DNA from: Candidatus Dojkabacteria bacterium | GTDB lineage: Bacteria; Patescibacteriota; Dojkabacteria; B142; WJKM01 | Assembly: GCA_041918255.1 (NCBI GenBank) | Contig: JAYRWD010000026.1 | Coordinates: forward strand, 9,977-73,976 | Direction of reading: 5' to 3' | Length of the DNA: 64,000 nt | Shown: piece by piece, positions 20,435 to 45,901 of the stretch | Position numbering within the stretch: position 1 is the stretch's first letter | Layout of the letters: the number at the start of each line of letters is the position of its first letter | Position numbers and translations under genes: made by a program | The notes under the pieces: generated by a model | What the model was told of the DNA's origin: nothing | The model's database searches: none | The model's input: only the letters and a program-made list of their open reading frames with translations

Positions 20435-21562
20435 TTACTCCAGCCTCATCGGCATAATTATGTGAATATATTCTGAGTCCTCCTTATCTTTAAATACACC
20501 TGGGGCAGAGGGTCCGTTTGTTTCGTATATAATCTCTTCACCTTCGATAGCATTTATCATGTCCTGCAAGAAACGCGCATTATAGGCTGTCTCAACCAAC
20601 TCCCCGCTTGTATTAACAATGTCGCAAATAGCTTCATTTTTTCCCATATCTATAACTTCCGAAGAAAGAACCAAATGATTCTGATCAGGTTTAACAATAA
20701 ATCTAGCTTTATTCCCAATAACGTTTCTAGCAAAAATGCCCACTATTTTGACTGCGTCTGCTAATTCGACCTTAAGTGCGCTAAAAGCATGTTGCTTATC
20801 TACTGGCAAAATATCCTCATAAGCAGGAAATTCTCCCTCGATAAGCCTTGTAGCCAACTCAATTTCGTTTAGTTTAAAAATCAATTGATTTTTTCCCTCT
20901 AGAAAAAACAGCTCTATCATATCCTTTTCCTGTGCCTCGCTTCTTATAATACGAGCTACTTCTAATAACGTCTTCGCAGGTACGATTTGATTAAATTCAT
21001 GATTTGCTCCTTCTTTAAGACTAATTTGTTTTTGTGAAAGACGAAAACCATCAACCGCAACAAGAGTTAATTTATGTTCCGTAATCTTGAGTAAGACTCC
21101 TGTCAAAACAGGACGAGCGGTATCTGTAGATGCTGAGAAAGCAGTTTTTTCAATCGCCTTAGCAAATAATAAAGCTCTTAATCTAACTATGGCTTTTCCT
21201 GTCGCGACAGGAACAGTCGGGAATTCATCCGCGGAGATAGTCACAAATTCGGCAGTATTATCCACCGACTTAACCACAAGCTTTGTACCTTCTTCAATAA
21301 TACTCAATTTCCCTGGTTTTAAAGAGCTAACAAATTCAAAGAGTAAACGGGCTGATACCGTCATTTTGCCTTCTTTCTCTACCTGTGCAGCTAAATTGAC
21401 ATTTATCCCCATTTCCAAATTAGTACTAGAGAGCTTAAATATTGAGTTTTGTGCTTCTATCAGTACATTATTTAATACCGGGATAGAAGGCCTTCCACTT
21501 ATCGCCTTGTTAATGTGAGAGAGAGCTTTGGCAAATTTTTCTTGTATTATTTCTGTTTTCAT
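20435..21562 (-). CDS. dnaN: DNA polymerase III beta sliding clamp
   Basis: A 375-aa product with three-domain clamp architecture. It lies immediately downstream of dnaA on the same strand. Confidence 0.85.
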   Translation of the reverse strand: MKTEIIQEKFAKALSHINKAISGRPSIPVLNNVLIEAQNSIFKLSSTNLEMGINVNLAAQVEKEGKMTVSARLLFEFVSSLKPGKLSIIEEGTKLVVKSVDNTAEFVTISADEFPTVPVATGKAIVRLRALLFAKAIEKTAFSASTDTARPVLTGVLLKITEHKLTLVAVDGFRLSQKQISLKEGANHEFNQIVPAKTLLEVARIIRSEAQEKDMIELFFLEGKNQLIFKLNEIELATRLIEGEFPAYEDILPVDKQHAFSALKVELADAVKIVGIFARNVIGNKARFIVKPDQNHLVLSSEVIDMGKNEAICDIVNTSGELVETAYNARFLQDMINAIEGEEIIYETNGPSAPGVFKDKEDSEYIHIIMPMRLE

Positions 21563-21769: not shown

Positions 21770-23164
21770 TTAGACTCCCAGCGAGACGTTAAAACCCTCT
21801 CGAATTCTCATAATTTGTTCTTCAAATCCCTTATTTAATTCTAACATCCCTTTGATTTTATCAATTCCGTGCATTATGGTGGTATGATCTTTTCTTTTTA
21901 GCATTTCGGCAATTTCCTCCAGTTTGTAGCCAAAATCTTCTCGCATGATAAACATTGCTACCTGCCTAGCTAAAGCTATTTCAGCTTTTCGTGTTTGTCC
22001 GAGTATTTGGTTTTTTGGGACGTCAAATTCTTTAGAAATAATACTAATTAATTCCTTTGGTTTAATTTTGATACGTTTACTCTGAGGATCGAGACCTAAT
22101 ATATTTGCGGCTTCATCAATAGAAAGATGAGTTTGATGAATTTGATCATAAAGGGCTAATTGTTGTAGAGAGCCCTCAAGACGTCTTACGTTATCTGTGA
22201 TATGGCGAGCAATATATTCTAATAATTCATGAGGGAGGTCCATATTTAACTGTTGGGCTTTTTTCTCTACTATTGCCATTCTTGTTTCAAAGTCAGGAGC
22301 TTCTATCTGTACCACCATACCTCCCTGGAAACGAGATAAGAGACGTACTTCTAACCCTTTGATCTCTTCGGGTGGACGATCGGATACAAACACAAGCTGC
22401 TTGTTTTGATTGTGAAGTGCGTTGAAAGTATTAAATAATTCATCTTGCGTTTGTTCCCACTTATAAATCATTTGAATATCGTCAATTATTAATAGATCAA
22501 GTTGACGATATCTATTCCTAAAATCGCGGGCTTTCCCTGTTTGAATAGAAGAGACCATCTCGTTTAAAAAATTTTCGCTTGGTTTGTACAGGACCTTTTT
22601 ACCTGGATTTTTTTCTAATAATTTTATGCCAATGGCCTGTGCTAAATGTGTCTTCCCAAGCCCGGTTTTTCCATATATAAATAAAGGGTTGTAGGCCATC
22701 CCTGGTTTCTCGATCACCGCGCAACAAGACGCATGAGCAAGACGATTTGAGGGGCCAACTACAAAATTGGTGATCGAGAATTTTGGATTAATATTAGCCT
22801 CGGTAGCAATCTGTGTCTGATTGAGGTTTTCCCCTTTGTGAGTATTGAGAAGGGGTGCTCGAGCTATATCTTTTGATTCTATTTTTGGGGAGAGTTCGTT
22901 GACGAGATTTTTTGCAATTTCAAAATCAACTTCTAATTCTTCTCCAGCAACATAGGAAAGGGTTTTCTGTATAAGGTCAAGATATTTTTTTCTTAACCAA
23001 TCAGACATGTAGCTGTTCTTTACCCCAACAACAGCTCTTTTTCCTGTAATATTCATGAGCTCAGTTGGTATAAACCAAGTTTTAAAGTGAGGTGGAGAGT
23101 CAAGTTTTACTTCGATTTGGGCTAATGTTGTTTTCCAGAGAACCTGCAAATCTTGTTGCTTCAT
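21770..23164 (-). CDS. dnaA: Chromosomal replication initiator DnaA
   Basis: Walker A GKTGLGKTHL, AAA+ sensor motifs, and a C-terminal DNA-binding domain with ...HTTIMHGIDKI. Confidence 0.9.
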   Translation of the reverse strand: MKQQDLQVLWKTTLAQIEVKLDSPPHFKTWFIPTELMNITGKRAVVGVKNSYMSDWLRKKYLDLIQKTLSYVAGEELEVDFEIAKNLVNELSPKIESKDIARAPLLNTHKGENLNQTQIATEANINPKFSITNFVVGPSNRLAHASCCAVIEKPGMAYNPLFIYGKTGLGKTHLAQAIGIKLLEKNPGKKVLYKPSENFLNEMVSSIQTGKARDFRNRYRQLDLLIIDDIQMIYKWEQTQDELFNTFNALHNQNKQLVFVSDRPPEEIKGLEVRLLSRFQGGMVVQIEAPDFETRMAIVEKKAQQLNMDLPHELLEYIARHITDNVRRLEGSLQQLALYDQIHQTHLSIDEAANILGLDPQSKRIKIKPKELISIISKEFDVPKNQILGQTRKAEIALARQVAMFIMREDFGYKLEEIAEMLKRKDHTTIMHGIDKIKGMLELNKGFEEQIMRIREGFNVSLGV

Positions 23165-25103: not shown

Positions 25104-26201
25104 TCAGGAAACCTCTTTAAGATCTTGCCATAGTGAACGTTGTTTCGAATTCAGTGATGTGGGAATCTGTACGTTTATCTTCACATATTGATCGCCATTT
25201 TTATTCCCTTTGAATTGGGGACCGCCTTTCCCACTCAATTTGAAAACGGTTCCGGGCTGAGTTCCCGGGGGAACCTTCATTGCTAGATCTCCGTGGACAG
25301 TCATGACACTTATCTCTCCACCGAGGGTTGCGACGATAGGATCGATTGATTGCTGCACGTAGATATCATTTCCACGTCGTTCGAAGTATTCATGGGGAGT
25401 TATTTCAATGCTGACATTTAAATCGCCGGATTGTCCGCCATTTGATCCTGCATTTCCCCGGTTTCGAAATTTTAGTGTGACGTTATCTGGAATCCCGTGT
25501 GGAATCTTTATGGTAAATAGATCTTCCACGTCATTATTTCCTTTGCCCTTGCAAGCCTTGCAAGGCCGTTTAATAATCTCGCCAGCGCCATTACACTCTG
25601 GGCATACAGTTTGAGTTTGCATCCTGCCGATGAAGGTTTGCTGAATTTGAATTACCGTTCCTTTCCCGTGACAGCGGGAACAGGTGATTTTATCCGAAAC
25701 GGATTCGGCCCCTGACCCATTACATTCGACACAAACACCCTTTCTTTTGTATTTGATTTTACGCTCGGTACCAAATATTGCCTCGAAAAAGTCAATGGTG
25801 ATGGAAATCTGCAAGTCCTCACCCGGATAAGTTCGGGAGCGTTTATGTCGTGTTTGACCAAAACCAAAATCTCCAAATCCTCCAAAATCTTGACCAAAAA
25901 ATTGACTAAAAACATCTCCCAAATCCTCGTAACTAAAACCCCCTGCGTATCCGTTATTATTACCGAAACCCGAAAATCCCTGCGTCCCGGCATGCCCGAA
26001 TTGATCATAAGCCTTCCTTTTTTCGGGGTCGCCTAAAGTCTCATACGCCTCTTGCACCTCCTTAAACTTTGTTTCCGCATCAGGGGATGAATTTCTATCT
26101 GGATGAAATTGTTTGGCTAAAGTTCTATATGCTTTTTTTATTTCTTGGGTGGTCGCGGTTTTCGTAATCCCAAGAACTTCATAATAATCTCTTTTTTCCA
26201 T
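25104..26201 (-). CDS. dnaJ: Chaperone DnaJ
   Basis: A J domain (DYYEVLGI...HPD), a G/F-rich linker and four CxxCxGxG zinc-finger repeats. The start is placed at the Met of MEKRDYYEVLG; the track ORF starts 21 codons upstream. Confidence 0.9.
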   Translation of the reverse strand: MEKRDYYEVLGITKTATTQEIKKAYRTLAKQFHPDRNSSPDAETKFKEVQEAYETLGDPEKRKAYDQFGHAGTQGFSGFGNNNGYAGGFSYEDLGDVFSQFFGQDFGGFGDFGFGQTRHKRSRTYPGEDLQISITIDFFEAIFGTERKIKYKRKGVCVECNGSGAESVSDKITCSRCHGKGTVIQIQQTFIGRMQTQTVCPECNGAGEIIKRPCKACKGKGNNDVEDLFTIKIPHGIPDNVTLKFRNRGNAGSNGGQSGDLNVSIEITPHEYFERRGNDIYVQQSIDPIVATLGGEISVMTVHGDLAMKVPPGTQPGTVFKLSGKGGPQFKGNKNGDQYVKINVQIPTSLNSKQRSLWQDLKEVS

Positions 26202-26423
26202 TGCGGTAATATTAGGGATATGATGTATAGATTTTAGCAAACGAGTAATACCTTTGCTAGTCACAAAATTTTTAAAGGTTGCTAGTTGTATTTAGGTATG
26301 TAATATCTGCAAGGCTAGAAAGTTTTTAAGAAGGCTGAATGAAAACCAAGATGTTAAGAAATATAAGGTTTATTCGGGATAAAATATGTTAAAATGATCA
26401 CTAGCGTAAATATCAAATAGATT

Positions 26424-28514: not shown

Positions 28515-30632
28515 GTGATTATTATTCGATCCGTTATGTTTCAAAAGAGATTGATAAAGAAAATATTAAAGGTGTGTTGTGTGCTTTTCGTATTAACAGG
28601 GTTTTTTATTGGCATGGGTCCTGTCCGCGGGGAAGGTCAAACAAGGGAATTCTGTGAGAAGGTTAGCGTGGTTGTTAGTACGGATAATGTGGATGAGGAG
28701 CAGAGTGTTATTGAAGTAGATTCAAATTTCATTCCAATTAAGCCTTATAAATTTAAGATACAAGTTAATCCGGATGCGTTTGTTGGGTGGAGTGATGCTG
28801 ATATGGAGATACGGATCGAGACAGATGCTATTTCAAGCTGGAATGACCCAGAACCAAATGATCCAAGTTTTATAATTAATACATATACAGCGAATGCTTT
28901 GTATGCAGAATTTAGTAGCAGATCAATTGAGGAGCTGGGAATGGGGCCATTTGCGTATATGTTAATGGAAAAGGGAACTAAAAAGGAATTTAAAATGAAA
29001 CGCAATAATAATGAAGAATTAGCCGATTGTGGCAAGATTATTGACGTCGTTCCATCTGATTATGTATCTAATAAGTGTAGTGATAGAAATCTTACCGCAG
29101 GTGCTTGGAAAGTTCCAGGATATTTCCAATGTAACTATAATAATGAAGGTTGGGATGTAAACACGTTTTCCACCTGTGATGCACAACAAGTTCGGCCCAC
29201 TGACGAGCTGTGTAGCGCATTGTTTAATGATAAGCTTACCGACGATAATACAGTATTCTGTTCAAAGTGTAAGACTGAAGCGGATTTACCAGGGTATGGT
29301 ACTACTCATCTTTATGGGGAATTGTGCGAACTTGGAGAGGGAAAGTGCGGGTATGATACTGGTTTAGTATGCCGAACTGTTGGATTGCAGAATTTATGTG
29401 TAAATAGTGATAAGCTTTGGGTTCGTGAAGATTGTATAGTTGGGGCAGATGAGTGTGTCGAAAAGGACAATGGGGGTTACACGGTCAAGTGTATTCAAAC
29501 GCAGCCATATACTTCTGTACCTGCTAATCCTTTGCAGCTCGCACAGATTATTGATCCGCCAGCAAGTAATAAATATTATGGAGTTGGGGTTATAGGTTCT
29601 ATGGGAGAATGTAAGTCACTGCAATATTTGGACAAAGTAGGCTGTGACACAGATCCCTACTGCCAAGGAAAAGTTGACGATGGTAATCCAGCAATAGTTG
29701 CATATAACTATGAGCTTGGAAAATGTATAAACAAAACTTATTGTGACTTTGGTTATTCATACGAAGAGTTTCCTAACGAAGAAGATGAAAACGTTCGGGG
29801 GACAGATGGACAAATTAGCATTGGATTAACCAAGGAAACCAAAGATCGGGGATATTCTGGGATTAGTGCAACATTATCTGGATTAGCCGGAAAAGAGATA
29901 AGCAAAGAGGCGGTGGGAAGTTTGAAATTTGAAAATATCCCATATGGTGAGGGTATCAAATATACTCTTAAGGTTAGTATCATTCCCGCTTCGCGGGGCG
30001 CAGGGATGATGGGCGGTTTACTTATTCATTCAAGTGCGCAAGCACCAGTAGTGTGTACCAAAACTAAGAGCATTGAGATGTTAGAAAAATTTAAAATAAT
30101 TGATCTTGAAGTCACAATAGACAAGGATGGAAAATGTACGTTAACGGTTGCCGAAGATTCTAGTTCAATTTCTCCCTCTTCATATGTTTCCAATATTGGC
30201 ATTGAAGGATGTGGTGACAGCCTAAGTTGCATCAATTGTTTAATTAGAAAAGACGCAACAAACTTCGAAAAGTTTACAAGTCTTGAAGAAGCCGTTGCCG
30301 CCAATGCAGGAGGCGAGGATAAAATTTATAGGACCAATAATATTTATACAGCGCTAGGGTGTATCGATCCCAGTGATCAGGGGATTATAGTAAGATTGTT
30401 ACAGATTTCTCTAGGTATAGTAGGAGGAATTACGGGGGCGCGTTTCGGACAGGCGGCTTACAAGTTTGGCAAAGGCGAGCCTGAGTCTACCAAGGAAGCA
30501 TGGGAAATAATCTGGTCCGCAATTTTGAGCCTTCTACTTATTGCATTCTCGGTAGTAGGTTTTCGATTTATCGGAATTAATCTATTCAAATTACTTACTC
30601 CCGGAACAGTAGAGATACCTTCTCCAAAGTAA
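28515..30632 (+). CDS. Large secreted Cys-rich protein that ends in a pilin-like (TrbC/VirB2-topology) paired-TM hairpin.
   Basis: A 705-aa product. An N-terminal signal anchor is followed by about 560 aa with more than 40 Cys, and the C-terminus is IVRLLQISLGIVGGITGARFGQAAY-[loop]-WEIIWSAILSLLLIAFSVVGFRFIGINLF. This has the same topology as the five genes that follow. Confidence 0.6.
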   Translation: MIIIRSVMFQKRLIKKILKVCCVLFVLTGFFIGMGPVRGEGQTREFCEKVSVVVSTDNVDEEQSVIEVDSNFIPIKPYKFKIQVNPDAFVGWSDADMEIRIETDAISSWNDPEPNDPSFIINTYTANALYAEFSSRSIEELGMGPFAYMLMEKGTKKEFKMKRNNNEELADCGKIIDVVPSDYVSNKCSDRNLTAGAWKVPGYFQCNYNNEGWDVNTFSTCDAQQVRPTDELCSALFNDKLTDDNTVFCSKCKTEADLPGYGTTHLYGELCELGEGKCGYDTGLVCRTVGLQNLCVNSDKLWVREDCIVGADECVEKDNGGYTVKCIQTQPYTSVPANPLQLAQIIDPPASNKYYGVGVIGSMGECKSLQYLDKVGCDTDPYCQGKVDDGNPAIVAYNYELGKCINKTYCDFGYSYEEFPNEEDENVRGTDGQISIGLTKETKDRGYSGISATLSGLAGKEISKEAVGSLKFENIPYGEGIKYTLKVSIIPASRGAGMMGGLLIHSSAQAPVVCTKTKSIEMLEKFKIIDLEVTIDKDGKCTLTVAEDSSSISPSSYVSNIGIEGCGDSLSCINCLIRKDATNFEKFTSLEEAVAANAGGEDKIYRTNNIYTALGCIDPSDQGIIVRLLQISLGIVGGITGARFGQAAYKFGKGEPESTKEAWEIIWSAILSLLLIAFSVVGFRFIGINLFKLLTPGTVEIPSPK

Positions 30633-30688
30633 CTGAGCAAAAGAAGGTAAAACAAGGTAAAATATTCATATAAAATATTAGAACTAGA

Positions 30689-31063
30689 GTGATGAGAGTG
30701 GTGCGGACCATAAAATCAAAACTTCTTGCGACAGCTGTTTTCGTCAGCACTTTTTCAATATTTGCTTTGAGGGTCGTACACGCCGTAGCTATTCCAGACC
30801 CAATAGGAAAAGATTTTCTAACCATCTTCAACGATGTCACCGGTCTCATTAAACCAATAACTGTACTTACCTTCCTAGCGACCTTTTTTTATGGTGGATA
30901 TACATGGATGACAGCAGGGGATAGCGAAGATGCGGTAAAAAAGGCCGGGAAAATTCTCACCACGTCAATTATCGGACTGATAATTATATTCCTAGCCCCA
31001 TCCTTAGCCGAACTTGTTGCAAGTTTGCTTGGAGTGAGGCAAATTATTGAATTTCCTAATTAA
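30689..31063 (+). CDS. TrbC/VirB2-like pilin-topology protein (signal peptide plus two TM helices), minimal version.
   Basis: A 124-aa product. It has a roughly 34-aa signal peptide ending AVA, helix 1 ITVLTFLATFFYGGYTWM, a short charged loop, and helix 2 ILTTSIIGLIIIFLAPSLAELVASLL. Confidence 0.6.
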   Translation: MMRVVRTIKSKLLATAVFVSTFSIFALRVVHAVAIPDPIGKDFLTIFNDVTGLIKPITVLTFLATFFYGGYTWMTAGDSEDAVKKAGKILTTSIIGLIIIFLAPSLAELVASLLGVRQIIEFPN

Positions 31064-31065
31064 CG

Positions 31066-31896
31066 ATGATGGATACAAATTTTCTTCGTAGTGCTAAAAC
31101 AATCTTAATTATTTTATGTGTTACTGGAACTGTCTACTTTGTTTCGCAGACCGGATATGTAAAGGCGGAGGGGGAAATATTAGATATCAAATGTGCTAGG
31201 GAAAGGATCCTAAATCCCACCGGTTGTTATGCAAGTGGCGAGAAAGATAGTCCAACAAGCAGTTTTAGTTTTTCGGGTACCGAGGAGAAAGGAGAGTTGG
31301 GGGGTTGTAAGGATCAAGAAAACAGCGAAAAATTTATGTGCGAATTAAATAAATTTTGCACTGGCTCTGGAGAGGAAAAAGATCAAACCTTTGGAAAAGA
31401 CGGATTAAATTACTCGGGGACCACTTTGCGATTCACTCAGGCCAACCTACCCAAGCTGATTAGAATGGCGCTCACAATCATTTTTTCCCTATTAGGCATC
31501 ACTGCACTCTTTATGGCTATTTACGGAATAATGAAATGGTTCTATGCCGTTCGCGGAGGTGGGGACGTTTCAAAGATGACAACATACTTTATGAATGGAA
31601 TATGGGGAGTATTTTTCGCGGCAGGAAGCATAGGCTTTACATATATGTTGTTTTGGGTTTTCGGGTATCGGGATAATATATTTGATTTCGGTGCTGTCTT
31701 TGATGAATTATATAGCGTAGATTGCGAAGCGGTTGTTAGCGAAAACGGAGATCCGGTAGACCCTACGCAAGTGCAAGCATTATGTGATAAATATAACCTT
31801 TCGTGTATGTATGTTCCGGGCAAATGTGTAGAGAGAGTGGCAGATTTCGATAGCTGTACTTCTAAGCCAAAAACAAGCAATATGAGGGTTACATAA
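31066..31896 (+). CDS. Pilin-topology paralog with a Cys-containing N-ectodomain and a Cys-rich C-tail.
   Basis: A 276-aa product with a signal peptide. Its TM hairpin is MALTIIFSLLGITALFMAIYGI / IWGVFFAAGSIGFTYMLFWVF. A Cys-rich tail follows. Confidence 0.55.
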   Translation: MMDTNFLRSAKTILIILCVTGTVYFVSQTGYVKAEGEILDIKCARERILNPTGCYASGEKDSPTSSFSFSGTEEKGELGGCKDQENSEKFMCELNKFCTGSGEEKDQTFGKDGLNYSGTTLRFTQANLPKLIRMALTIIFSLLGITALFMAIYGIMKWFYAVRGGGDVSKMTTYFMNGIWGVFFAAGSIGFTYMLFWVFGYRDNIFDFGAVFDELYSVDCEAVVSENGDPVDPTQVQALCDKYNLSCMYVPGKCVERVADFDSCTSKPKTSNMRVT

Positions 31897-31935
31897 GATA
31901 AGCCTATCCAGAACGTCTATAAATGTTACGCCAAT

Positions 31936-32688
31936 ATGGGTATGAAAAATAAAATATATTTATCATTCGCAACGCTCCTCACACTGTTTTCCTTTGCTAC
32001 GAGGGTAGCAGCTCAGGTTAATATTGATGTCCCAGACGGAAAAACCAAAATTGAGATAGATTATTTCAAACCATCGGCCTTTACAGATTTGATGAAGTTT
32101 GGGGCTTTAGGATTTGTGGGATATATCGCCATTTTCCTTGTTGGCTTTATGTTTATATATATCACCGTCCAAATAGCCATTTCCGCGGGCAAAATTATTC
32201 AAAGCCAAGGAGATTCTGGCAAACTCGAGGAAGGAGTTTCCGAAATCCAAAAATTTATGCGAGGGGTTTTGATAGCAATGTTATTTTTATTGGCATTTGT
32301 GGCGGTTGGAATCTTTATGGGAAGCGGAAATATTATGAAGTGGCCTTCTAAACTCGGACAATGTGGCGGGGGCGGGGTTTTGTTTAACGCAGAATATGAC
32401 GCCTCCCTGAAGAATGAAAAGATCTATGAGAAGGAAACGCAAGTACTATGTTGTAGAAATTTTGAAAGTTTGGACTTTGGGGACGAAAATACCGTCTTGG
32501 TTTCTCCAGTAGGGGGTATTAGAGGATTTAGCAAGGATGGACCTTCAGCAGGAAATCCATTCGCTATAGTCGTGGGAACCGAAACGGACGGAGGCTGGAT
32601 GTTTATCCTACCATCTGCAACAGGAGAATCTAGAGATTTACAATCGACCCAATCTGACCAAGAGAAATATGTTTGTTCGATTTATTAA
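31936..32688 (+). CDS. Pilin-topology paralog
   Basis: A 250-aa product with a signal peptide (…ATRVAAQ). Its TM hairpin is FGALGFVGYIAIFLVGFMFIYITV / VLIAMLFLLAFVAVGIFMG. A C-tail with CGGGG and CC follows. Confidence 0.55.
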   Translation: MGMKNKIYLSFATLLTLFSFATRVAAQVNIDVPDGKTKIEIDYFKPSAFTDLMKFGALGFVGYIAIFLVGFMFIYITVQIAISAGKIIQSQGDSGKLEEGVSEIQKFMRGVLIAMLFLLAFVAVGIFMGSGNIMKWPSKLGQCGGGGVLFNAEYDASLKNEKIYEKETQVLCCRNFESLDFGDENTVLVSPVGGIRGFSKDGPSAGNPFAIVVGTETDGGWMFILPSATGESRDLQSTQSDQEKYVCSIY

Positions 32689-32721
32689 GATTGCAACCTG
32701 AGGAGTTTCTTTGTATTATAT

Positions 32722-33387
32722 TTGAGAAAGCTAAAAATAATTAATATTATTTTAAAAAATATGAAGCAATTTAAAACATTGGCAAAAGTTGGTTTGGGTT
32801 TAGCTCTATCTTTGGCATCAACATATACAGTTGTAGCCGCTCAGTGTGGAGGTTGGTTGCCAGAATTCCTACAGGGGTTTGTGTGCGAGGATCCAGTAAA
32901 CAATTTAACAAACAGGGTGAAAGTGTTTTTCGTACTAGCTTTCGGAGCAGTAATACTAATGGGAGTTGTGTATACAATTTCGGCTGCGTTGAAGTTCATG
33001 CGAAGTAAGGGTGAAAGCGGAGAGATTGAAAATAGCCAAAAAGCAGTCACGGCGATTTTCTACGGAGTTGCTTCGCTTTTTGTTGGAGTGATTGGTATGG
33101 TTGTGGTCACACTATTCTTTTCTCCCACGGTTATTTTCCCTCAGCAAATTTGTATACAAGCCCCGGATAGCTACGGCTGTTTTGCCTGTCGTAATCCTAA
33201 GAAGGGTTCAAATGTTTCTTTCGTAGATATTTGTAATGCATGTAACGATGTGTCCGAGGCACCACTAAGTGATATTAGTGGAAATGTGACGTGTGCTGAT
33301 GATGTTCCCGCGAATATCTCCGATGATGATATAGTTCTAAAGCTTGATGAGGTAAAAACGGTTGGAACGAAAAAAGTTGGGGTCTAG
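32722..33387 (+). CDS. Pilin-topology paralog
   Basis: A 221-aa product with a signal peptide (…VVAAQ) followed by CGGW...C. Its TM hairpin is VFFVLAFGAVILMGVVYTI / AIFYGVASLFVGVIGMVVVTLFF. A Cys-rich tail follows. Confidence 0.55.
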   Translation: MRKLKIINIILKNMKQFKTLAKVGLGLALSLASTYTVVAAQCGGWLPEFLQGFVCEDPVNNLTNRVKVFFVLAFGAVILMGVVYTISAALKFMRSKGESGEIENSQKAVTAIFYGVASLFVGVIGMVVVTLFFSPTVIFPQQICIQAPDSYGCFACRNPKKGSNVSFVDICNACNDVSEAPLSDISGNVTCADDVPANISDDDIVLKLDEVKTVGTKKVGV

Positions 33388-33586
33388 ATTGGAACAGGAT
33401 TATTCAAATCCGCTTTCTTCAAACTGAATAAAAATTGACTTTATGCGATACCCGAAAAAGGCAACAAATGTGTGTCACACTGAGTTCATCGAGGTGCGAC
33501 ACTATCATATTTTTACCCCTCGACGTGCTTCTGCCAGAGGCAGACAGACAGGGTGACATAATAAATGTAGTTTCGTATAAAGTCTA

Positions 33587-34540
33587 ATGAAGTATAAATT
33601 GCTTTCTTTGTTTGCCATTGCTCTGACTGTTAGCACGGTTTTTTTCACCACGCCAGGAATCGCTCTGGTTAGTGCGCAAAGTCAAGAGGAAGTAAATCCG
33701 CTTTTCGATCTCAGTTCAACCGATCCAATCTATATAAATCTCAATTACGACTGTACAAATATTAAGTGGTCGGAAGGTGCGATAGGGATTTATAGAAAAG
33801 TCTATAAGTCCGGGGACAAATATTATGAAGCCAATCCTCGAATAAACGAAATCCAGCAATATCTAAATGGCAAGCCCTATGCCGAGACCTACTTTCTTTT
33901 TGAAGGCGAAACGGGATTGAGTTTAGAAGAGAGTTCTATTAACAAAAATGATTTCAATGCCACGCCATTCAACGAAATAAAGAGGATTGCTCCCTCGCCT
34001 TTTATTATTCCTAGTGATAATCCAGAGCCTATTTTGAAAGAATACGTTGGCATGCCCCTGTGTGATGGTGCCTATTCCTTTAGTGGAAACGATTTTCTTG
34101 CTCCAAATCAAAAGATGAGAGCAAGTCTCGATAATCAGAACGAAAGTTTCGGAGAGCCAAAAAGTTTTGTCCCAGCAAATTTCGTACCCCCTGTATTGCA
34201 GCAAGCGGAAAATTACTTCGTGGAGATAATATACATTTTTTGGAGTATTATTGGACTAGCAGCAGTTGGGCAGTTATTTGTCATAGGTTTGAAAATCCTG
34301 ACATCAAGCTTTAGCCCGGAGCAAAAAGGAGCTACGTTACGCTCGGTAGCATTATGGGTGGTCGGACTGGCATTGGCCATAGTGGCTATTCCACTTTTGC
34401 AATTTATTTTTAGAATTTTGGACATACAAGACACTAGATGCTTCAAATATACTGAGAATAATGAATTAGTTTACGATCTGACCGTTCCGGGTTTCACGTT
34501 CTTCTTTAATGATACATGTACGTCCGAGGAGAGCTTGTAG
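33587..34540 (+). CDS. Pilin-topology paralog with a roughly 170-aa ectodomain.
   Basis: A 317-aa product with a signal peptide (…LVSAQSQ). Its C-terminal hairpin is FVEIIYIFWSIIGLAAVGQLFVIGL / LRSVALWVVGLALAIVAIPLLQFIF. Confidence 0.55.
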   Translation: MKYKLLSLFAIALTVSTVFFTTPGIALVSAQSQEEVNPLFDLSSTDPIYINLNYDCTNIKWSEGAIGIYRKVYKSGDKYYEANPRINEIQQYLNGKPYAETYFLFEGETGLSLEESSINKNDFNATPFNEIKRIAPSPFIIPSDNPEPILKEYVGMPLCDGAYSFSGNDFLAPNQKMRASLDNQNESFGEPKSFVPANFVPPVLQQAENYFVEIIYIFWSIIGLAAVGQLFVIGLKILTSSFSPEQKGATLRSVALWVVGLALAIVAIPLLQFIFRILDIQDTRCFKYTENNELVYDLTVPGFTFFFNDTCTSEESL

Positions 34541-39950: not shown

Positions 39951-42155
39951 ATGCAAATTGATAGAAATAGAATAAAAACTCAGTATTTCGTTGGGGCTTC
40001 TCGTAAGACTCAGTGGTCAAGCGTGTATATATTCTCACCCCATATACCCGCCGTTTATGAAAAGATGGGCGATCTGTTTGCCATTATTACGTTATCGAGC
40101 CCCCCTTCATTTGATTCTAATACCGCAGGAAATCTCTTGATAGACGCACTGCAAGAGGCATATTTTGATGGCCCAAATGAGAATCCATTTGAAGGAATTG
40201 ATTATGCAGTGAAGTCGGCAAAGAAACGTTTAGAGGATCTAATTGAGAGTGATGAAATAATTTCGCAAACTGGAATCGAACTTAGTTTACTATTGGTAGT
40301 TATTCATGAAGAAAAGGCTTATTTAGCCCGCATCGGCGAAGGAGCAATTTTTGGATTCAGAGAGGGCGAAATGGTTGAATTCACTACTAGTTTGAAAGAT
40401 CCCGATGGCAAGGGACATATGAAAACTGCAAGTCTAAGGGTTAGTCCTGGAGATCGATTTGCGATTCTGACTAAAGAAATTCAGCAAAATATTTCAAAAG
40501 ATGAAATTGAAGCAAGTCTCGTGAAGTTTAAGCTAGAGAATATTGAAAATAAAAAGTTTTCAGATGAGGCCTTGAGCGCGATTTTACTTATTGAGGTCGA
40601 GAAAGAGGAGAGGGCAGATATACTAGAGATCAAAGAGTCAATTCAGAATGACAGTGTCAAAGATGAAGATTTCAAAGGGATGTATAGAGAATTTGAAACA
40701 CGAACTTTGAAGGAAAGGGGGGATGAAGAAGCCGAATATAAATTTTTGTCCGCATCAACTTATCATTCTACACCAATATTTATGAGGCTCAGAAGGCAAG
40801 TCAAAGTAGTAATGAATTCTAGATCGTTGGCTAAGGTTATTATATATGGGCGTAATGTCCTCGGGGTACTATTCGGACTATTGGGATCTTTACATCGAAC
40901 CATAAAGTCAAAAGTACTAAAGATACCTCCTAAAGAAATGCTGTATATAAATGATTTGAACAAAGGTGGTAATAAAAGACCAGCAATATTTTTCTTTGTT
41001 TTATCAATTTTATTGATTTACTTTATTATTACAGGAGTTTCGAATTCAAGAGAACGCGCAAAGCTTGCATTTGAGGCTGAGCAAACGATCGTAACATCTG
41101 AAGCTGAACTGACTGAGCTAGAAAATAAAGTAGCCTCTATCATTCTTACCTACGGTAACGAAATAGATAGGGATGCAGCTTTTCGAAAAGTAGACGAGAT
41201 TAAATTAAAATTAGAAGCACTGAAGGTAGAAGAAGTATCTGAGAAACAAAATGCAATTCTAGATAGATTGGAAGAAGTGAATCGTAAGCTTCGTAGGATT
41301 ATTCAGGTCAGAGAAGTTAAAGTGGTCAAAGATTTTGCAGTAATAGAGGGTAGCCAAATAGCTGATATTGATATCGGAGCAGAACAAATTTTTGTGGCCG
41401 ACGGTGGTGATGGCAAAATTTTAGCATTTGATAGGGCAGGTGGGAGTATGAAACAATTAGCCACCGGCTTAAAAGGTCTAATCTCTATAGCATATTCAAA
41501 TCTTGGGCATTTAGCATTTATTGACGGTGATCCTCAAAGAGTTTTAGGTCTTATCAGACTGTCTGATAATATATTGACTCGGGTACCAGGTATCGATGCA
41601 ATTAGGCTCGGCAGGGTAAATGATATCGATGCTTACAAAGTTGGGGAGAACGATAATCGCATTTATGCTGTTCGACCAGAGTCTTCACAAGTTATTCAAA
41701 TGCGTCAATCGGCAGGAGAGTATGTTTTGCCCGAAATTAGACTTGAGAATAAAGATTTGGGGAAAATTTCAGATCTTGAGGTAAGTGACGGGAGGATCTA
41801 CATTCTGTCTCAGGACAAAGGAATTAAGGCTTTTTTTGGAAACGGGGAGGTAGCTTTGAAGCTGTACGGTCTTATGCAACCAGAATTATGGAATTCGGCA
41901 AATAATATATATGTGGATTCAAAATATATATATTTAAGCAATGATTCTATGAAGAGGATTGCGGTTTTCTCAAAATTTAGACCATCGGATGAAGGAGCGG
42001 TGGATTTTATCGCACAGTATGATTTAACCGGATTGCCTCAGAGCGGTAAACTCGGCGAATTGGTTGCCAGTCAACAACAGAGAACTATATATGTCGTACT
42101 CGGAAGTAAGATAGTGAAACTTGATATGTCAGCTATGGAGGAATTCACATACTAG
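39951..42155 (+). CDS. Hypothetical 734-aa single-pass membrane protein: N-terminal cytoplasmic domain, coiled coil, and a C-terminal repeat (beta-propeller-like) domain.
   Basis: A TM helix (PAIFFFVLSILLIYFIITGV) lies mid-protein. The N-domain is faintly PP2C-like (ARIGEGAIFGF), but the DGHGG motif is absent. The C-terminal 300 aa are rich in repeated G/D-containing strands. Confidence 0.4.
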   Translation: MQIDRNRIKTQYFVGASRKTQWSSVYIFSPHIPAVYEKMGDLFAIITLSSPPSFDSNTAGNLLIDALQEAYFDGPNENPFEGIDYAVKSAKKRLEDLIESDEIISQTGIELSLLLVVIHEEKAYLARIGEGAIFGFREGEMVEFTTSLKDPDGKGHMKTASLRVSPGDRFAILTKEIQQNISKDEIEASLVKFKLENIENKKFSDEALSAILLIEVEKEERADILEIKESIQNDSVKDEDFKGMYREFETRTLKERGDEEAEYKFLSASTYHSTPIFMRLRRQVKVVMNSRSLAKVIIYGRNVLGVLFGLLGSLHRTIKSKVLKIPPKEMLYINDLNKGGNKRPAIFFFVLSILLIYFIITGVSNSRERAKLAFEAEQTIVTSEAELTELENKVASIILTYGNEIDRDAAFRKVDEIKLKLEALKVEEVSEKQNAILDRLEEVNRKLRRIIQVREVKVVKDFAVIEGSQIADIDIGAEQIFVADGGDGKILAFDRAGGSMKQLATGLKGLISIAYSNLGHLAFIDGDPQRVLGLIRLSDNILTRVPGIDAIRLGRVNDIDAYKVGENDNRIYAVRPESSQVIQMRQSAGEYVLPEIRLENKDLGKISDLEVSDGRIYILSQDKGIKAFFGNGEVALKLYGLMQPELWNSANNIYVDSKYIYLSNDSMKRIAVFSKFRPSDEGAVDFIAQYDLTGLPQSGKLGELVASQQQRTIYVVLGSKIVKLDMSAMEEFTY

Positions 42156-43151: not shown

Positions 43152-45623
43152 ATGATTCAAGCTGTCCGCATATTAGCACAAATGGATTTTTTCTCCTTAG
43201 TTATGGACCCTGCGTCATTCGTAGATGAAGCAAGCAATGACCCTTCGTTTCTGATAATGGTTTGCCTTATGGCAATATTGGGTCTTGTAATTTTGATTCT
43301 AGCGTATAAGCTATTTATGAAGGGAGTGATGCATGCTTCTATGGAAAAAAAGTCATTAAGCTCAGTTCTCTTTGAAGTTAGACTTCCGCATACGAATGAG
43401 GTCGAGATACAATCAGCCGATCAAATGCTAACGGGGTTTCTTGGCATTGAAAGAGAACTGAAGGGGCTACAAAAATGGTTTGGTTCGAAATATTATATTA
43501 GTTTTGAAATTGTAGCGTTGCCTGAGACTATAAGATTTTTTGTAAATGTCCCAAAGAAATTAGCGACACTTGTAGAAAAACAAATAAATGGTACTTATCC
43601 TGAGGGTGAAGTAATAAGAACGGATGAATATAATATATTTGGACCTGGGCAGAAGGTAGAATTCTGTTCATTGAAGTTAGCTGAGGATCCGTATAAGCCC
43701 ATCCGGACATATGAAGAGCTTTCGCAAGATGGTTTAAGCAGCATTACCTCCGTTATGAATAAAATGGGTCCTGGTGATGCTATGGCGTTACAGATTGTTA
43801 TTACTCCCTCATCAGGAGAGTGGCGCAAAGATGGTCGAAAATACGTAAATAAAATACGAGAGAATAATTCTGATCCGGAAAAATCAAAGATAGAGGTAGA
43901 AGACGAAATACTTGCTGCAATTGAAAAGAAGGCAGAAAAGCCTGGATTTGAATCAGTTGTGAGGATTGTAAGTGTTTCTACGTTAGGAGAAATAGCTAAA
44001 TCAAATTTGGATAACATGGTTTACGCGTTTGATCAGTTTGCTAATCAAAATGGAAATAGGTTTAAAAAAGTTTCATACAAGAAAAGAAAGGAACAAAGGG
44101 AATTCATGAAGTCCTTTTTGTACAGATTCCCCTCGAAAGCGATGATTTTAAACTCCTCTGAATTAGCTACTATTTTTCACTATCCAAATAGCAAAATTAC
44201 TACTCCGCACATACATTGGCTTACCTCGAAACGTGCTCCAGCAAGTGGAGAAGTCTTATCTCATTTCGAAAATGCAGGGGTATACCTAGGAGTGAATGAA
44301 TATAGGGGCACGAAAAGAAAGATATTCATGCGCTATGACGATAGGCGACGACATTTTTATTATGTTGGTAAAACAGGTTCTGGTAAATCTGTAATGTTGC
44401 AGCATATGGCCTATCAGGATATTTTAAACGGACAGGGATTAGCATTCCTGGATCCTCACGGGGACGCCGTTGAATGGCTTATGGATCGAATACCGGCCGA
44501 ACGTGTCGAGGACATTATTTATTTCAACCCTGCGGATACGGATCGTCCAATAGGTATGAATATCATGGAATGGTATACCGAACATGATAAACACATTATT
44601 GTGAATGGTTTCTTGGGTCTTCTTAATAAATTATTTGATCCTTACAATCAAGGTATTACTGGACCACGTTTCGAGCAGGCCGTAAGGAATGCGATGTTGA
44701 CTGTTATGGCAAAAAAAGGCACTAGCTTGGCTGAAGTGATGACACTTTTACAAAATGACAAGATAGCAGAGAAATACTTTCCATATTTAAACGATGATAT
44801 TGTAAAACGCTATTGGACAGAACAAATAGCCCATACCCAGGAATTTCACAAATCGGAAATTTTAGGATATATAACCTCTAAGTTTGACAGATTTATCACA
44901 AATAAATTGATGCGAAATATTATTGCTCAAAGCAAATCTGGCTTTGATTTCCGTACAGTTATGGATGAAGGCAAGGTTTTATTAATTAACTTATCCAAGG
45001 GATTAATCGGGGAAGAAAACTCACAATTCCTAGGGCTATTATTGATACCCAAAATGTTGCAAGCAGCGATGAGTAGGGCGAATATTGAAGCTGGATCAAG
45101 GCGGGATTTTTATCTATATGTAGACGAGTTCCAGAATTTTGCGACGCCTGATTTTGCTCAAATTCTTTCGGAGGCTCGAAAATACAGGCTTAACCTAATT
45201 GTCGCTAACCAATACATCGCCCAAATGACGGATGAGATCCGTGATGCTGTTTTCGGTAATGCAGGGTCTATAGGTAGTTTCAAAGTGGGAGTGAATGATG
45301 CGCAGTACTTGGCGAATGAATTTGAGCCAGTATTTAATCAAAACGACTTAATCAATTTGGAAAATTTGAATATGTATATCAAGTTACTTGTAAAAGGTGA
45401 ATATCCTCCTCCATTTTCGTTAAAATTAGATACGGATTTGGTCTTCAAAACACCACCGAATAAAGAAATTGGTCAGCTTGTTAGGGAACTATCGCGACTG
45501 AAGTATGGGAAAGACGCAAAGCTGGTCGATGCCGAGATAAAGGCAAGAGAACAAGAAGATGGACCAGGCAATATTGTATCACAACCACCGCCTCCGGCGT
45601 ATAAGCCACCGCTGAGTAGCTAA
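43152..45623 (+). CDS. VirD4/TraG/TraD-family type IV coupling-protein-like P-loop ATPase
   Basis: An N-terminal TM helix. Walker A YYVGKTGSGKS is followed by LDPHGD, which resembles the T4CP DPKGE motif. Walker B is YVDEFQNFA, with GNAGSIGSFKVG beyond it. The product is 823 aa. Confidence 0.55.
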   Translation: MIQAVRILAQMDFFSLVMDPASFVDEASNDPSFLIMVCLMAILGLVILILAYKLFMKGVMHASMEKKSLSSVLFEVRLPHTNEVEIQSADQMLTGFLGIERELKGLQKWFGSKYYISFEIVALPETIRFFVNVPKKLATLVEKQINGTYPEGEVIRTDEYNIFGPGQKVEFCSLKLAEDPYKPIRTYEELSQDGLSSITSVMNKMGPGDAMALQIVITPSSGEWRKDGRKYVNKIRENNSDPEKSKIEVEDEILAAIEKKAEKPGFESVVRIVSVSTLGEIAKSNLDNMVYAFDQFANQNGNRFKKVSYKKRKEQREFMKSFLYRFPSKAMILNSSELATIFHYPNSKITTPHIHWLTSKRAPASGEVLSHFENAGVYLGVNEYRGTKRKIFMRYDDRRRHFYYVGKTGSGKSVMLQHMAYQDILNGQGLAFLDPHGDAVEWLMDRIPAERVEDIIYFNPADTDRPIGMNIMEWYTEHDKHIIVNGFLGLLNKLFDPYNQGITGPRFEQAVRNAMLTVMAKKGTSLAEVMTLLQNDKIAEKYFPYLNDDIVKRYWTEQIAHTQEFHKSEILGYITSKFDRFITNKLMRNIIAQSKSGFDFRTVMDEGKVLLINLSKGLIGEENSQFLGLLLIPKMLQAAMSRANIEAGSRRDFYLYVDEFQNFATPDFAQILSEARKYRLNLIVANQYIAQMTDEIRDAVFGNAGSIGSFKVGVNDAQYLANEFEPVFNQNDLINLENLNMYIKLLVKGEYPPPFSLKLDTDLVFKTPPNKEIGQLVRELSRLKYGKDAKLVDAEIKAREQEDGPGNIVSQPPPPAYKPPLSS

Positions 45624-45901
45624 AAGCTATAGCACAAAGATCTTGAATAGCAAAAAAAACTGTAACATGCATTGTCTGGACCGTTCATTTTGCCTATGTT
45701 TACCTACACCGCCTTAAATATCGGGAGAGTAAGTAATTACATAGCCTAATTACGTGAAAAAACAATCTCCTCTGAAAAATTACCTAGTATATCTAGTTTT
45801 TCATATAAATTTGCAAAGGGTAGTCAGCTTTTTCAAATAGTGCTAATCTATCATTGAAGCTTTTACAAATTATATACATCTAATTTTATTTATTTCTTGC
45901 C

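What the first reader, a model, noticed from the sequence alone, without database searches (positions are those of the whole stretch)
28515..34540. Six tandem paralogs share only a C-terminal VirB2/TrbC-like TM hairpin and have hypervariable Cys-rich ectodomains
Six consecutive same-strand genes, of 705, 124, 276, 250, 221 and 317 aa, share one architecture. Each has a cleavable signal peptide and one pair of closely spaced hydrophobic helices separated by a short charged loop. The 124-aa member is essentially just that, which makes it a textbook conjugative-pilin (TrbC/VirB2) precursor topology. The other five append unrelated Cys-rich ectodomains N- or C-terminal to the hairpin. The first carries a 560-aa domain with more than 40 cysteines. 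This looks like a cassette of alternative pilin or tip-adhesin subunits built on one polymerising core. A diversified surface filament would be expected for an epibiont or cell-contact organism. Such an array has not, to my knowledge, been characterised.
Basis: partly seen in the sequence, partly recalled or inferred. Interest (0 to 1): 0.85.

Follow-up and report, generated by a model that had tools for sequence, protein, structure and literature searches.

The report
Tandem VirB2-like pilin genes with ectodomains
Six neighbouring genes near the replication origin all carry the membrane hairpin of conjugative (VirB2/TrbC-type) pilins, five of them with extra, mostly cysteine-bearing outer domains; this is a further example, with unusually large members, of the "pilin arrays" already described for the type IV secretion systems of the ultrasmall Patescibacteria.

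Summary
The six same-strand genes are real, and each encodes a signal peptide plus one two-helix membrane hairpin.

**Family assignment**
- The 124-aa protein is a bona fide Pfam PF18895 T4SS_pilin (44 bits, cutoff 26.6).
- The other five fall below Pfam's threshold.
- A profile built from 324 pilin domains outside the window ranks the six as the top six of about 5,350 test proteins.
- hhalign gives 64-94% probability for the five, against at most 23% for decoys.
- The 705-aa protein's hairpin is 39-42% identical to a "TALGCIP"-type pilin domain in proteins that also carry canonical pilin domains.
- The 250-aa member is the weakest case.

- The large protein has 28 cysteines, not more than 40.
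- The hairpin is not always C-terminal.
- The arrangement has been described: tandem arrays of 2-11 divergent VirB2-like pilins, often near dnaA, are reported for Patescibacteria (Wang 2023; Quinonero-Coronel 2025).

**What is less described**
- Long cysteine-rich ectodomain extensions are common in metagenomic relatives: 48 of 223 complete genes are at least 180 aa.
- The 705-aa ectodomain has strain-level hypervariable patches.
- No VirB4 or VirB6 lies in the window, only a coupling-protein-like ATPase.

Pilus assembly remains an inference. Verdict: new member of a known kind, moderate interest.

The parts
28515..30632 (+). g1: a 705-aa ORF (likely start at 28536, giving 698 aa). It has a signal peptide, a ~580-aa ectodomain with 26 Cys and no detectable homologue, and a C-terminal pilin-type hairpin of the 'TALGCI' subtype.
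   Evidence: ORF; topology and Cys counts. Pfam PF18895 gives only 10.9 bits. The outside profile gives E = 1.3e-3 and hhalign 64%. The hairpin is 39% identical over 109 aa to the first pilin domain of P0035 and 42% to P0044. Homologue searches found only the protein itself. The AF2 model of the ectodomain has pLDDT 34.
30375..30578 (+). g1 hairpin (residues about 621-688)
29129..29198 (+). g1 hypervariable patch 1 (codons about 205-228): 28 of the 30 g1 differences from a 99.3%-identical genome fall here.
   Evidence: In that genome a scaffold gap follows, at window 29302-29568.
29655..29905 (+). g1 hypervariable patch 2 (codons 381-464): 33 of 36 differences from strain contig L082 fall here, mostly non-synonymous.
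30689..31063 (+). g2: a 124-aa canonical 'bare' T4SS pilin precursor with a signal peptide and a hairpin. It has no Cys and carries the family motifs IPDP and YGGYTWMTAGD.
31066..31896 (+). g3: 276 aa. A central hairpin (nt 31453-31674) is flanked by a 95-aa N-terminal and a 73-aa C-terminal ectodomain, each with 5 Cys.
   Evidence: Outside profile E = 2.4e-7; hhalign 94%. Its BLASTP hits go only to pilin-domain proteins.
31936..32688 (+). g4: 250 aa. An N-proximal hairpin (nt 32098-32325) is followed by a 120-aa C-terminal ectodomain with 4 Cys. This is the weakest family member.
   Evidence: TrbC E = 0.068. Profile E = 0.044 against 0.054 for the best decoy. hhalign 91%. No BLASTP link.
32722..33387 (+). 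g5: 221 aa (likely start at 32761, giving 208 aa). An N-proximal hairpin (nt 32917-33126) is followed by an 86-aa C-terminal ectodomain with 6 Cys.
   Evidence: Profile E = 5.6e-4; hhalign 87%.
33587..34540 (+). g6: 317 aa. A 183-aa N-terminal ectodomain precedes the hairpin (nt 34226-34411) and a 42-aa C-terminal tail. It follows a 199-bp gap.
   Evidence: NCBIfam NF045849 (Mbov_0395 pilin-like conjugal transfer protein) at 25.9 bits, E = 5.6e-6. PF18895 E = 0.009. Profile E = 9.6e-9; hhalign 93%.
43152..45623 (+). A possible partner, unproven: an 823-aa coupling-protein-like (VirD4/TrwB/TraD) ATPase 8.6 kb downstream. It is the only other T4SS-type gene in the window.
   Evidence: Pfam T4SS-DNA_transf, TraG-D_C and TrwB_AAD_bind; PDB TrwB; NCBIfam TraD and CD1115.
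21770..23164 (-). Context: dnaA, with dnaN next to it and the GC-skew switch near 22 kb. The array therefore starts 5.3 kb from the replication origin region.

Best explanation
The region is an origin-proximal tandem array of six Sec-exported membrane proteins. All are built on the VirB2/TrbC-superfamily pilin hairpin (Pfam PF18895, T4SS_pilin). It is the same kind of 'VirB2 array' or 'pilin array' already described for the monoderm-type T4SS of Patescibacteria.

**Shown**
- g2 is a canonical small pilin.
- g1, g3, g5 and g6 carry the same domain, and g4 probably does.
- Every mature cysteine lies in a segment that is extracytoplasmic if the signal peptide is cleaved, which puts both termini outside and the loop inside, as in VirB2.
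- The extensions are unrelated to one another.
- The g1 extension varies in local patches between near-identical strains.

**Inferred**
- After Sec export and signal-peptidase cleavage, the hairpins sit in the membrane as a pool.
- The bare pilin g2 would be the bulk subunit of a T4SS-associated filament or envelope conduit.
- The extended paralogues would insert through the same hairpin as minor, terminal or basal subunits, or as alternative subunits.
- These would display disulfide-stabilised domains towards the host cell surface.
- Diversity of the ectodomains would then tune partner recognition or evade phage and host defences.
For: - **Domain assignment, public models.** Pfam and NCBIfam hits fall exactly at the hairpins.
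- **Domain assignment, outside profile.** A profile of 324 outside domains gives g2 4.6e-29, g6 9.6e-9, g3 2.4e-7, g5 5.6e-4, g1 1.3e-3 and g4 0.044. The best of about 5,350 decoys scores 0.054.
- **hhalign.** Probabilities are 99.7, 94.3, 92.6, 91.3, 86.9 and 64.4%, against at most 22.6% for decoys.
- **g1 link.** The g1 hairpin is 39-42% identical to the first pilin domain of multi-pilin proteins.
- **Topology.** All 52 mature Cys lie in the predicted outside segments, and none in TM1, the loop or TM2.
- **Published precedent.** 441 arrays of 2-11 divergent VirB2 genes are reported, with T4SS genes near dnaA (PMC12102498). S. epibionticum has an essential six-pilin array (PMC10633639 and PMC12857230).
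- **Metagenomic relatives.** 44 same-strand arrays of at least 3 genes were found in 80 loci, and 20 of them include members of at least 180 aa. The extensions are 6.5% Cys against a 1.3% background.
- **Strain variation.** g1 has two hypervariable ectodomain patches.
- **Other T4SS gene.** A T4CP-like ATPase lies 8.6 kb downstream.
Against: - No VirB4, VirB6, VirB3/PrgI or VirB8 gene lies within the 64-kb window.
- None of 20 large genes flanking metagenomic arrays was a T4SS ATPase or channel.
- Five of the six proteins fail Pfam's own threshold, and g4 is borderline in every test.
- The six hairpins are not significantly similar to each other directly.
- A 580-aa domain on every subunit is hard to reconcile with tight helical pilus packing, so g1 cannot be a bulk subunit.
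- No pilus of this type has yet been seen in any Patescibacterium, according to the reviews read.
- The organism's phylum was not verified here.
Confidence: 0.6

Rival explanations
1. Hairpin-anchored surface proteins that work independently of any T4SS. In this reading the pilin-like hairpin is only a membrane anchor or oligomerisation module, and the ectodomains act as adhesins, binding proteins or envelope components. The small members would be degenerate or scaffold copies.
For: - No VirB4 or VirB6 lies in the window.
- Metagenomic arrays sit next to solute-binding proteins, Ig-like surface proteins, DUF2079 membrane proteins and PBPs rather than T4SS genes.
- The published survey found the pilin gene near virB4 in only 1,135 of 1,948 assemblies.
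- Single polypeptides with 2-10 concatenated hairpins exist, which look more like polytopic membrane proteins.
Against: - In S. epibionticum the array lies inside the T4SS cluster and is essential.
- The domain is homologous to TrbC/VirB2.
- A T4CP-like gene is nearby.
- Conservation of a bare 90-residue mature pilin in 3,449 representatives argues that the hairpin itself has a function.
Confidence: 0.25
2. Sec-secreted effectors or toxins delivered to the host cell. This is the older reading of the TM7x 'Sec-secreted array' and 'six putative effector genes'.
For: Earlier literature treated the equivalent genes of TM7x as secreted or effector genes. Signal peptides and cysteine-rich domains are common in secreted effectors.
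Against: Every member keeps two strongly hydrophobic helices (Kyte-Doolittle 1.5-2.8 over 19 residues), which would retain it in the membrane. The only shared part is the hairpin, not a catalytic or binding domain. No toxin or enzyme family hit was found.
Confidence: 0.07
3. The shared architecture is a coincidence of composition, or the genes belong to another two-helix family such as holins, VirB3/PrgI or type IV (T4P) pilins.
For: Pairwise similarity among the six is at noise level. Four of them score only 11 bits on PF18895.
Against: - The six are the top six of about 5,350 proteins with an outside profile, and they are the only hits in the window.
- No holin, PrgI or N-methyl pilin model hits at E <= 1.
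- The signal peptides are classical A-x-A type, not class III.
- There is no phage context.
Confidence: 0.05

Closest known systems
Pilin array of the Southlakia epibionticum ML1 T4SS (SEML1_0014-0019; Wang et al. 2023, PMC10633639; reviewed in PMC12857230)
   Same: Six tandem, sequence-divergent PF18895/VirB2-like genes with signal peptides, close to the start of the chromosome. Monoderm-type T4SS background.
   Different: - The ML1 pilins are small. The sizes read were 126-138 aa, with one having its domain at residues 115-180. All hit PF18895 at i-E about 1e-7 to 1e-11.
- Here five of six are 208-698 aa with large extensions, and they miss Pfam's threshold.
- The ML1 array lies inside the virB4/virB6 cluster and lacks a coupling protein. 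Here no virB4 or virB6 is in view, but a T4CP-like gene is.
VirB2 arrays of Patescibacteria (Quinonero-Coronel et al. 2025, PMC12102498)
   Same: Tandem arrays of 2-11 genes with about 25% mean identity, often near dnaA/dnaN/rnpA. This matches the position and divergence seen here.
   Different: By that study's criteria (i-E < 0.001, more than 50% profile coverage with Pfam or CONJScan models), only g2 would be counted, so this locus would be scored as a single pilin. Ectodomain extensions and cysteine content are not discussed in the text I read.
Conjugative pilins TrbC/VirB2/TraA, and the archaeal conjugation-type pilin of Aeropyrum pernix (PDB 8dfu)
   Different: Sequence identity is about 16%. 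Nothing here shows cyclisation, lipid co-assembly or pilus formation. Classical systems have one pilin gene and no large ectodomain fusions.
Mbov_0395/MMCAP2_0565 family pilin-like conjugal transfer proteins of Mycoplasma ICEs (NCBIfam NF045849)
   Same: Small two-helix proteins of monoderm conjugation systems. g6 matches at 25.9 bits and g2 at 18.3 bits, at the hairpin.
   Different: Both scores are below the curated cutoff of 40 bits. There is no ICE context here.
VirB2 paralogue amplification in Bartonella and Anaplasma T4SS (as cited in PMC12102498)
   Same: Tandem, variable pilin paralogues, proposed to give antigenic variation or to broaden host-surface interactions.
   Different: Those are diderm T4SSs of intracellular pathogens, whose paralogues are small and similar to each other. 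Here the hairpins are highly divergent and carry unrelated extra domains.
Minor pilins and tip adhesins of type IV pili and type II pseudopili (functional analogy only)
   Same: A shared polymerising membrane segment carries variable, sometimes large, outward-facing domains. Subunits are encoded in clusters.
   Different: An unrelated fold and machinery: a single N-terminal helix, a class III signal peptide and a prepilin peptidase. None of these features is present here.

Membership tests
Pfam PF18895 T4SS_pilin (TrbC/VirB2 superfamily) | Score at or above the curated gathering threshold (26.6 bits) | tested here: inconclusive
   g2 meets it at 44.2 bits. g6 scores 16.5, g3 11.1, g5 11.0 and g1 10.9 bits, so they do not. 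g4 has no PF18895 hit; it hits TrbC at 13.8 bits.
Pfam PF18895 T4SS_pilin (TrbC/VirB2 superfamily) | Significant match to a family profile built from sequences outside the window, against a decoy background | tested here: met
   - HMM of 324 domains: the six are the top six of about 5,350, with E from 4.6e-29 to 0.044, against 0.054 for the best decoy.
- hhalign gives 64-99.7%, against at most 22.6% for decoys.
- The g1 hairpin is 39-42% identical to the pilin domains of P0035 and P0044.
- g4 remains borderline.
Pfam PF18895 T4SS_pilin (TrbC/VirB2 superfamily) | Precursor with a cleavable Sec signal peptide, then two transmembrane helices joined by a short loop, with both termini outside | tested here: met
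   - Hydropathy and A-x-A-type sites are present in all six.
- All 52 mature Cys fall in the predicted outside segments.
- Cleavage itself was not testable without SignalP or an experiment.
Pfam PF18895 T4SS_pilin (TrbC/VirB2 superfamily) | Fold like solved conjugative pilins | tested here: inconclusive
Pfam PF18895 T4SS_pilin (TrbC/VirB2 superfamily) | Polymerises into a pilus made by a VirB4-dependent machine | not testable with these tools
   Needs cryo-EM or cryo-ET, or genetics.
Patescibacterial T4SS with VirB2 array (Wang 2023; Quinonero-Coronel 2025) | Two or more pilin genes in tandem, or separated by one non-pilin gene | tested here: met
   Six contiguous genes with gaps of 2-199 bp, using the family profile. 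Under the paper's own Pfam cutoffs only g2 qualifies.
Patescibacterial T4SS with VirB2 array (Wang 2023; Quinonero-Coronel 2025) | Linked VirB4 and other MPF-FATA-type components (VirB6/PrgH, PrgI/VirB3, TrsD) | tested here: not met
   Pfam scans of all 43 non-array ORFs of at least 120 aa that do not lie inside a longer ORF on the other strand found none, apart from a T4CP-like ATPase at 43152-45623. DnaJ (25104-26264) was identified from its sequence and from the Pfam calls on strain contig L083. The rest of the genome was not available. The paper finds the pilin near virB4 in 1,135 of 1,948 assemblies.
Patescibacterial T4SS with VirB2 array (Wang 2023; Quinonero-Coronel 2025) | Chromosomal position near dnaA/dnaN/rnpA | tested here: met
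   dnaA at 21770-23164, dnaN at 20435-21562, rnpA at 49205-49591, and a GC-skew switch near 22 kb.
Patescibacterial T4SS with VirB2 array (Wang 2023; Quinonero-Coronel 2025) | Host organism belongs to Patescibacteria/CPR | not tested
   No rRNA or taxonomic label was obtainable. The assignment is inferred from the family's distribution in the literature and from relatives found in groundwater small-filter metagenomes.
Holins or other two-helix membrane families | Match to a holin, PrgI or other family model, or a phage-lysis context | tested here: not met
   No such model hits at E <= 1 in Pfam or NCBIfam. Neighbours are housekeeping genes.
Type IV (T4P) pilins | Class III signal peptide (G|F/M-x-x-x-E) and a single N-terminal helix | tested here: not met
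   The sequences show classical signal peptides and two helices. No N_methyl or pilin model hit.
Diversity-generating retroelement target | A template repeat and a reverse transcriptase near the variable region | tested here: not met
   No second copy of 29601-29950 exists in the window. No RT was found among the scanned ORFs.

The most novel reading that the evidence does not exclude
The extended members are a distinct, overlooked class: pilin-hairpin-anchored, disulfide-rich, rapidly diversifying ectodomains. They would be mounted on, or at the end of, an essential T4SS-related filament and would determine which host cells the epibiont can engage. Because they fall below standard HMM thresholds, published censuses undercount array sizes and miss this display function. 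The locally hypervariable g1 patches would mark the contact surface.
Probability: 0.3. Interest if true: 0.65.

Novelty: new member of a known kind. Interest (0 to 1): 0.38.

Why it matters
The role of the T4SS and its pilin array in Patescibacteria is an open question. The array is essential in the one species tested, and no pilus has been seen. This locus shows that an array can consist mostly of members with large, cysteine-bearing, mutually unrelated outer domains, and that standard domain searches miss them. It also shows that one such domain varies in sharp patches between near-identical strains. That points experiments toward the ectodomains as likely host-contact surfaces. It also suggests that array censuses should be redone with more sensitive profiles. 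It does not reveal a new kind of system.

Tried and rejected
- **Genome scan with IF-2 for synteny.** It was swamped by the universal GTPase motif. The 80 unrelated loci were reused only as decoys.
- **Word-index homologue searches of g2, g1 and a 65-sequence family alignment.** These returned essentially only this species.
- **Leave-one-out HMMs from the six hairpins alone.** They gave no signal, so direct paralogy cannot be shown.
- **The search for related loci with family alignments.** I replaced this with a back-translated YGGxxWMTAG motif scan.
- **AF2 of g1 without an alignment.** pLDDT was 34, so the model was not used for fold search.
- **Fold and PDB searches.** Foldseek against PDB with the g2 model found nothing significant. 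PDB sequence searches with g2 and with the family profile gave only noise.
- **DGR hypothesis for the g1 variable patches.** No template repeat and no RT were found (and the Pfam scans).
- **Phage or holin reading.** No support.
- **Synteny with metagenome locus L148, where IF-2 lies next to an array.** The IF-2 is only 37% identical, so it is not a close relative.
- **Taxonomic identification.** Exact-match look-ups and accession searches in papers failed.

Full report
**1. What is in the sequence**

Six ORFs lie head to tail on the + strand:

| Gene | Coordinates | Maximal length (aa) |
|---|---|---|
| g1 | 28515-30632 | 705 |
| g2 | 30689-31063 | 124 |
| g3 | 31066-31896 | 276 |
| g4 | 31936-32688 | 250 |
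| g5 | 32722-33387 | 221 |
| g6 | 33587-34540 | 317 |

The gaps between them are 56, 2, 39, 33 and 199 bp. The likely true starts are M8 for g1 (698 aa; gene call on a strain contig) and M14 for g5 (208 aa).

Hydropathy analysis shows the same layout in every protein:
- An N-terminal signal-like segment ends in a V/A-x-A site.
- Exactly one pair of strongly hydrophobic helices follows, separated by a 13-25-residue polar loop.
- The hairpin is C-terminal in g1, g2 and g6, central in g3, and N-proximal in g4 and g5.

All 52 cysteines of the mature proteins lie in segments that are extracytoplasmic if the signal peptide is cleaved. None is in TM1, the loop or TM2. This fits a VirB2-like topology (N-out, C-out) with disulfide-bonded outer domains.

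**2. Is the shared hairpin a VirB2/TrbC-type pilin domain?**

*Public models.* g2 passes Pfam PF18895 (T4SS_pilin) at 44.2 bits against a cutoff of 26.6, and nearly passes TrbC/VirB2 PF04956 at 22.7 bits. The other five give only sub-threshold hits, but always at the hairpin:
- g6: 16.5 bits on PF18895, and 25.9 bits on NCBIfam NF045849, the Mycoplasma-ICE pilin-like conjugal transfer family.
- g1, g3 and g5: about 11 bits on PF18895.
- g4: 13.8 bits on TrbC.

*Direct comparison.* The six hairpins are not significantly alike. Pairwise phmmer scores are about 10 bits or less, and a leave-one-out HMM fails against about 5,350 decoy ORFs.

*Outside profile.* An exhaustive phmmer search of mature g2 against 1.84 billion representatives found 3,449 relatives at E <= 1e-3. 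From 149 of them I built a profile of 324 pilin domains that contains nothing from the window.

| Protein | Outside-profile E | hhalign probability, % |
|---|---|---|
| g2 | 4.6e-29 | 99.7 |
| g6 | 9.6e-9 | 92.6 |
| g3 | 2.4e-7 | 94.3 |
| g5 | 5.6e-4 | 86.9 |
| g1 | 1.3e-3 | 64.4 |
| g4 | 0.044 | 91.3 |
| Best decoy | 0.054 | at most 22.6 |

The six window proteins are therefore the top six against the decoy set plus the six. No other ORF in the window scores better than E = 3.6.

*The g1 link.* g1 is linked more firmly through a sub-type of the domain that starts with "TALGCI(P/D)". Its last 110 residues are 39% identical over 109 aa to the first hairpin of P0035, and 42% identical to P0044. 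Both proteins go on to carry two canonical YGG...TAGGDP pilin domains.

*The weakest member.* g4 remains the weakest. It has no BLASTP bridge, and it rests on hhalign, rank, architecture and position.

*Fold.*
- An AF2 model of g2 (pLDDT 75) is a signal helix plus a helical hairpin.
- Foldseek and the PDB sequence searches gave nothing significant.
- The fold evidence is therefore consistent with a conjugative pilin but not discriminating.

No holin or other family competes.

**3. The ectodomains**

- They have no Pfam or NCBIfam match.
- They show no similarity to each other, and none to ectodomains of the relatives I collected.
- g1 has no detectable homologue beyond its own species.
- AF2 without an alignment failed for g1 (pLDDT 34), so the folds are unknown.

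Three near-identical strain sequences exist.
- Contig L082 is 98.4% identical to the window. 33 of its 36 differences fall in g1 codons 381-464, and most are non-synonymous.
- A genome at 99.3% identity (GCA_964578695.1) has 28 of its 30 g1 differences in codons 205-228. It also has a scaffold gap right after that patch, at window 29302-29568.
- The g1 hairpin, g2 and the start of g3 are almost invariant.
- No template repeat or reverse transcriptase is present, so this is not a DGR within the window.

"Hypervariable" is therefore true between paralogues. At strain level it is shown only for patches of g1.

**4. Context**

- The array starts 5.3 kb from dnaA and dnaN, at the GC-skew switch. 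It follows IF-2 and rlmH, and precedes SbcD/SbcC-like genes.
- Pfam scans of the 43 non-array ORFs of at least 120 aa that do not lie inside a longer ORF on the other strand found no VirB4, VirB6, VirB3/PrgI or VirB8. DnaJ (25104-26264) was identified from its sequence and from the Pfam calls on strain contig L083.
- The only other T4SS-type gene is an 823-aa coupling-protein-like ATPase at 43152-45623.
- The organism could not be named. The window has no rRNA gene, and exact-match look-ups and accession searches gave no label. A Patescibacterial origin is inferred, not shown.

**5. What is already known**

- Quinonero-Coronel et al. 2025 (PMC12102498) report 441 VirB2 arrays of 2-11 pilin genes in 383 Patescibacterial assemblies, with about 25% mean identity. 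They also report T4SS genes commonly near dnaA, dnaN and rnpA.
- Wang et al. 2023 (PMC10633639) found an essential series of predicted pilins inside the T4SS cluster of Southlakia epibionticum. [quoted passage not shown]
- The ML1 pilins are small and hit PF18895 clearly.

**6. What differs here, and how general it is**

Five of the six members carry extensions of about 110 to 600 residues and escape standard thresholds. By the 2025 study's criteria this locus would count as a single pilin.

A motif scan of metagenomes (YGGxxWMTAG) returned 80 loci with 273 pilin-domain ORFs.
- 64 loci have two or more such ORFs.
- There are 44 same-strand arrays of three or more genes.
- Of 223 complete single-domain ORFs, 48 are at least 180 aa, 25 are at least 250 aa and 13 are at least 400 aa. 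The longest is 3,086 aa with 128 Cys.
- The extensions average 6.5% Cys, against a 1.3% background.
- 20 of the 44 arrays mix bare and extended members.

The window's architecture is thus common among relatives. It is not discussed in the papers I could read.

**7. Mechanism**

Shown:
- Homology of the hairpin to the T4SS pilin family.
- Sec-type signal sequences.
- Cysteines confined to the predicted outer segments.
- Unrelated ectodomains.
- Local strain-level variation in g1.
- The origin-proximal position.

Inferred:
- The proteins are exported and cleaved, and sit in the membrane through the hairpin.
- g2 is the bulk subunit of a T4SS-linked filament or conduit.
- The extended paralogues use the same hairpin to join as minor, terminal or basal subunits that display disulfide-stabilised domains to the partner cell.

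I put about 0.85 on [quoted passage not shown], and about 0.35 on the specific filament model with display subunits. I give 0.6 to the overall statement.

The main rival (0.25) is that the hairpin serves only as an anchor for T4SS-independent surface proteins. Two observations favour it: there is no VirB4 or VirB6 here, and none was found among 20 large genes flanking metagenomic arrays. The effector and chance readings are unlikely.

**8. Verdict**

The finding is a new member of a known kind, with moderate interest (0.38). Its value lies in the under-described extended, cysteine-bearing, strain-variable members.

Noticed in passing
window 29129-29198 and 29655-29905 (g1 ectodomain); L082, L083: There are two sharply bounded hypervariable patches between near-identical strains, about 40% and 13% divergent and mostly non-synonymous, with small recoded stretches. 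The surrounding DNA is more than 99% identical. In the sister assembly a scaffold gap lies between the two patches (window 29302-29568). The pattern looks like diversifying selection or imported recombination tracts. No DGR template was found.
   Followed up: partly
P0003, P0005, P0009, P0035, P0054 and others (relatives of g2, not in the window): Many family members are 'poly-pilins': one signal peptide followed by 2 to about 11 concatenated pilin hairpin domains in a single polypeptide. For example, P0003 is 606 aa with 7 domains. 88 of the 148 top representatives have at least 2 domains. This is a covalent version of the gene array.
   Followed up: partly
L088, L106, L108, L124, L129, L135, L144, L152, L163 (metagenome loci): An ABC-type extracellular solute-binding protein gene (Pfam SBP_bac_1 in the five copies scanned, four more recognised with an HMM built from those five; five compared pairwise are 38-45% identical) lies directly 5' of the pilin-domain array on the same strand. 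The gaps are 2-133 bp. All 9 SBP-like genes found in the 80 loci are in this position, and in at least six of the nine loci an extended, cysteine-rich member follows. No such gene lies next to the window's array.
   Followed up: partly
window 33388-33586 (gap between g5 and g6): The 199-nt intergenic region folds much better than shuffles: MFE -53.8 kcal/mol, z = -3.5, with 2 of 200 shuffles as good. It has no Rfam family at gathering score. It could be a structured leader for g6, or a small RNA.
   Followed up: no
window 43152-48461: A coupling-protein-like ATPase (823 aa) is followed by an SLH-domain surface protein, tRNA-Ile(TAT) and a XerC/D-type tyrosine recombinase. This could be a remnant or boundary of an integrated element, or it could be ordinary chromosomal genes.
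   Followed up: no
window 54672-61709: A giant 2,345-aa ORF has beta-helix/NosD and CarboxypepD_reg-like domains, and a sub-threshold response-regulator receiver hit at its N-terminus. It is probably a large surface protein. A second beta-helix protein lies at 50132-51508.
   Followed up: no
window 39951-42155 and 42683-43072: A 734-aa protein with no Cys has a central pair of hydrophobic segments (residues about 293-363) and only a faint PP2C-like hit. A 129-aa low-complexity protein lies just upstream of the T4CP-like gene. Neither has a family assignment.
   Followed up: no
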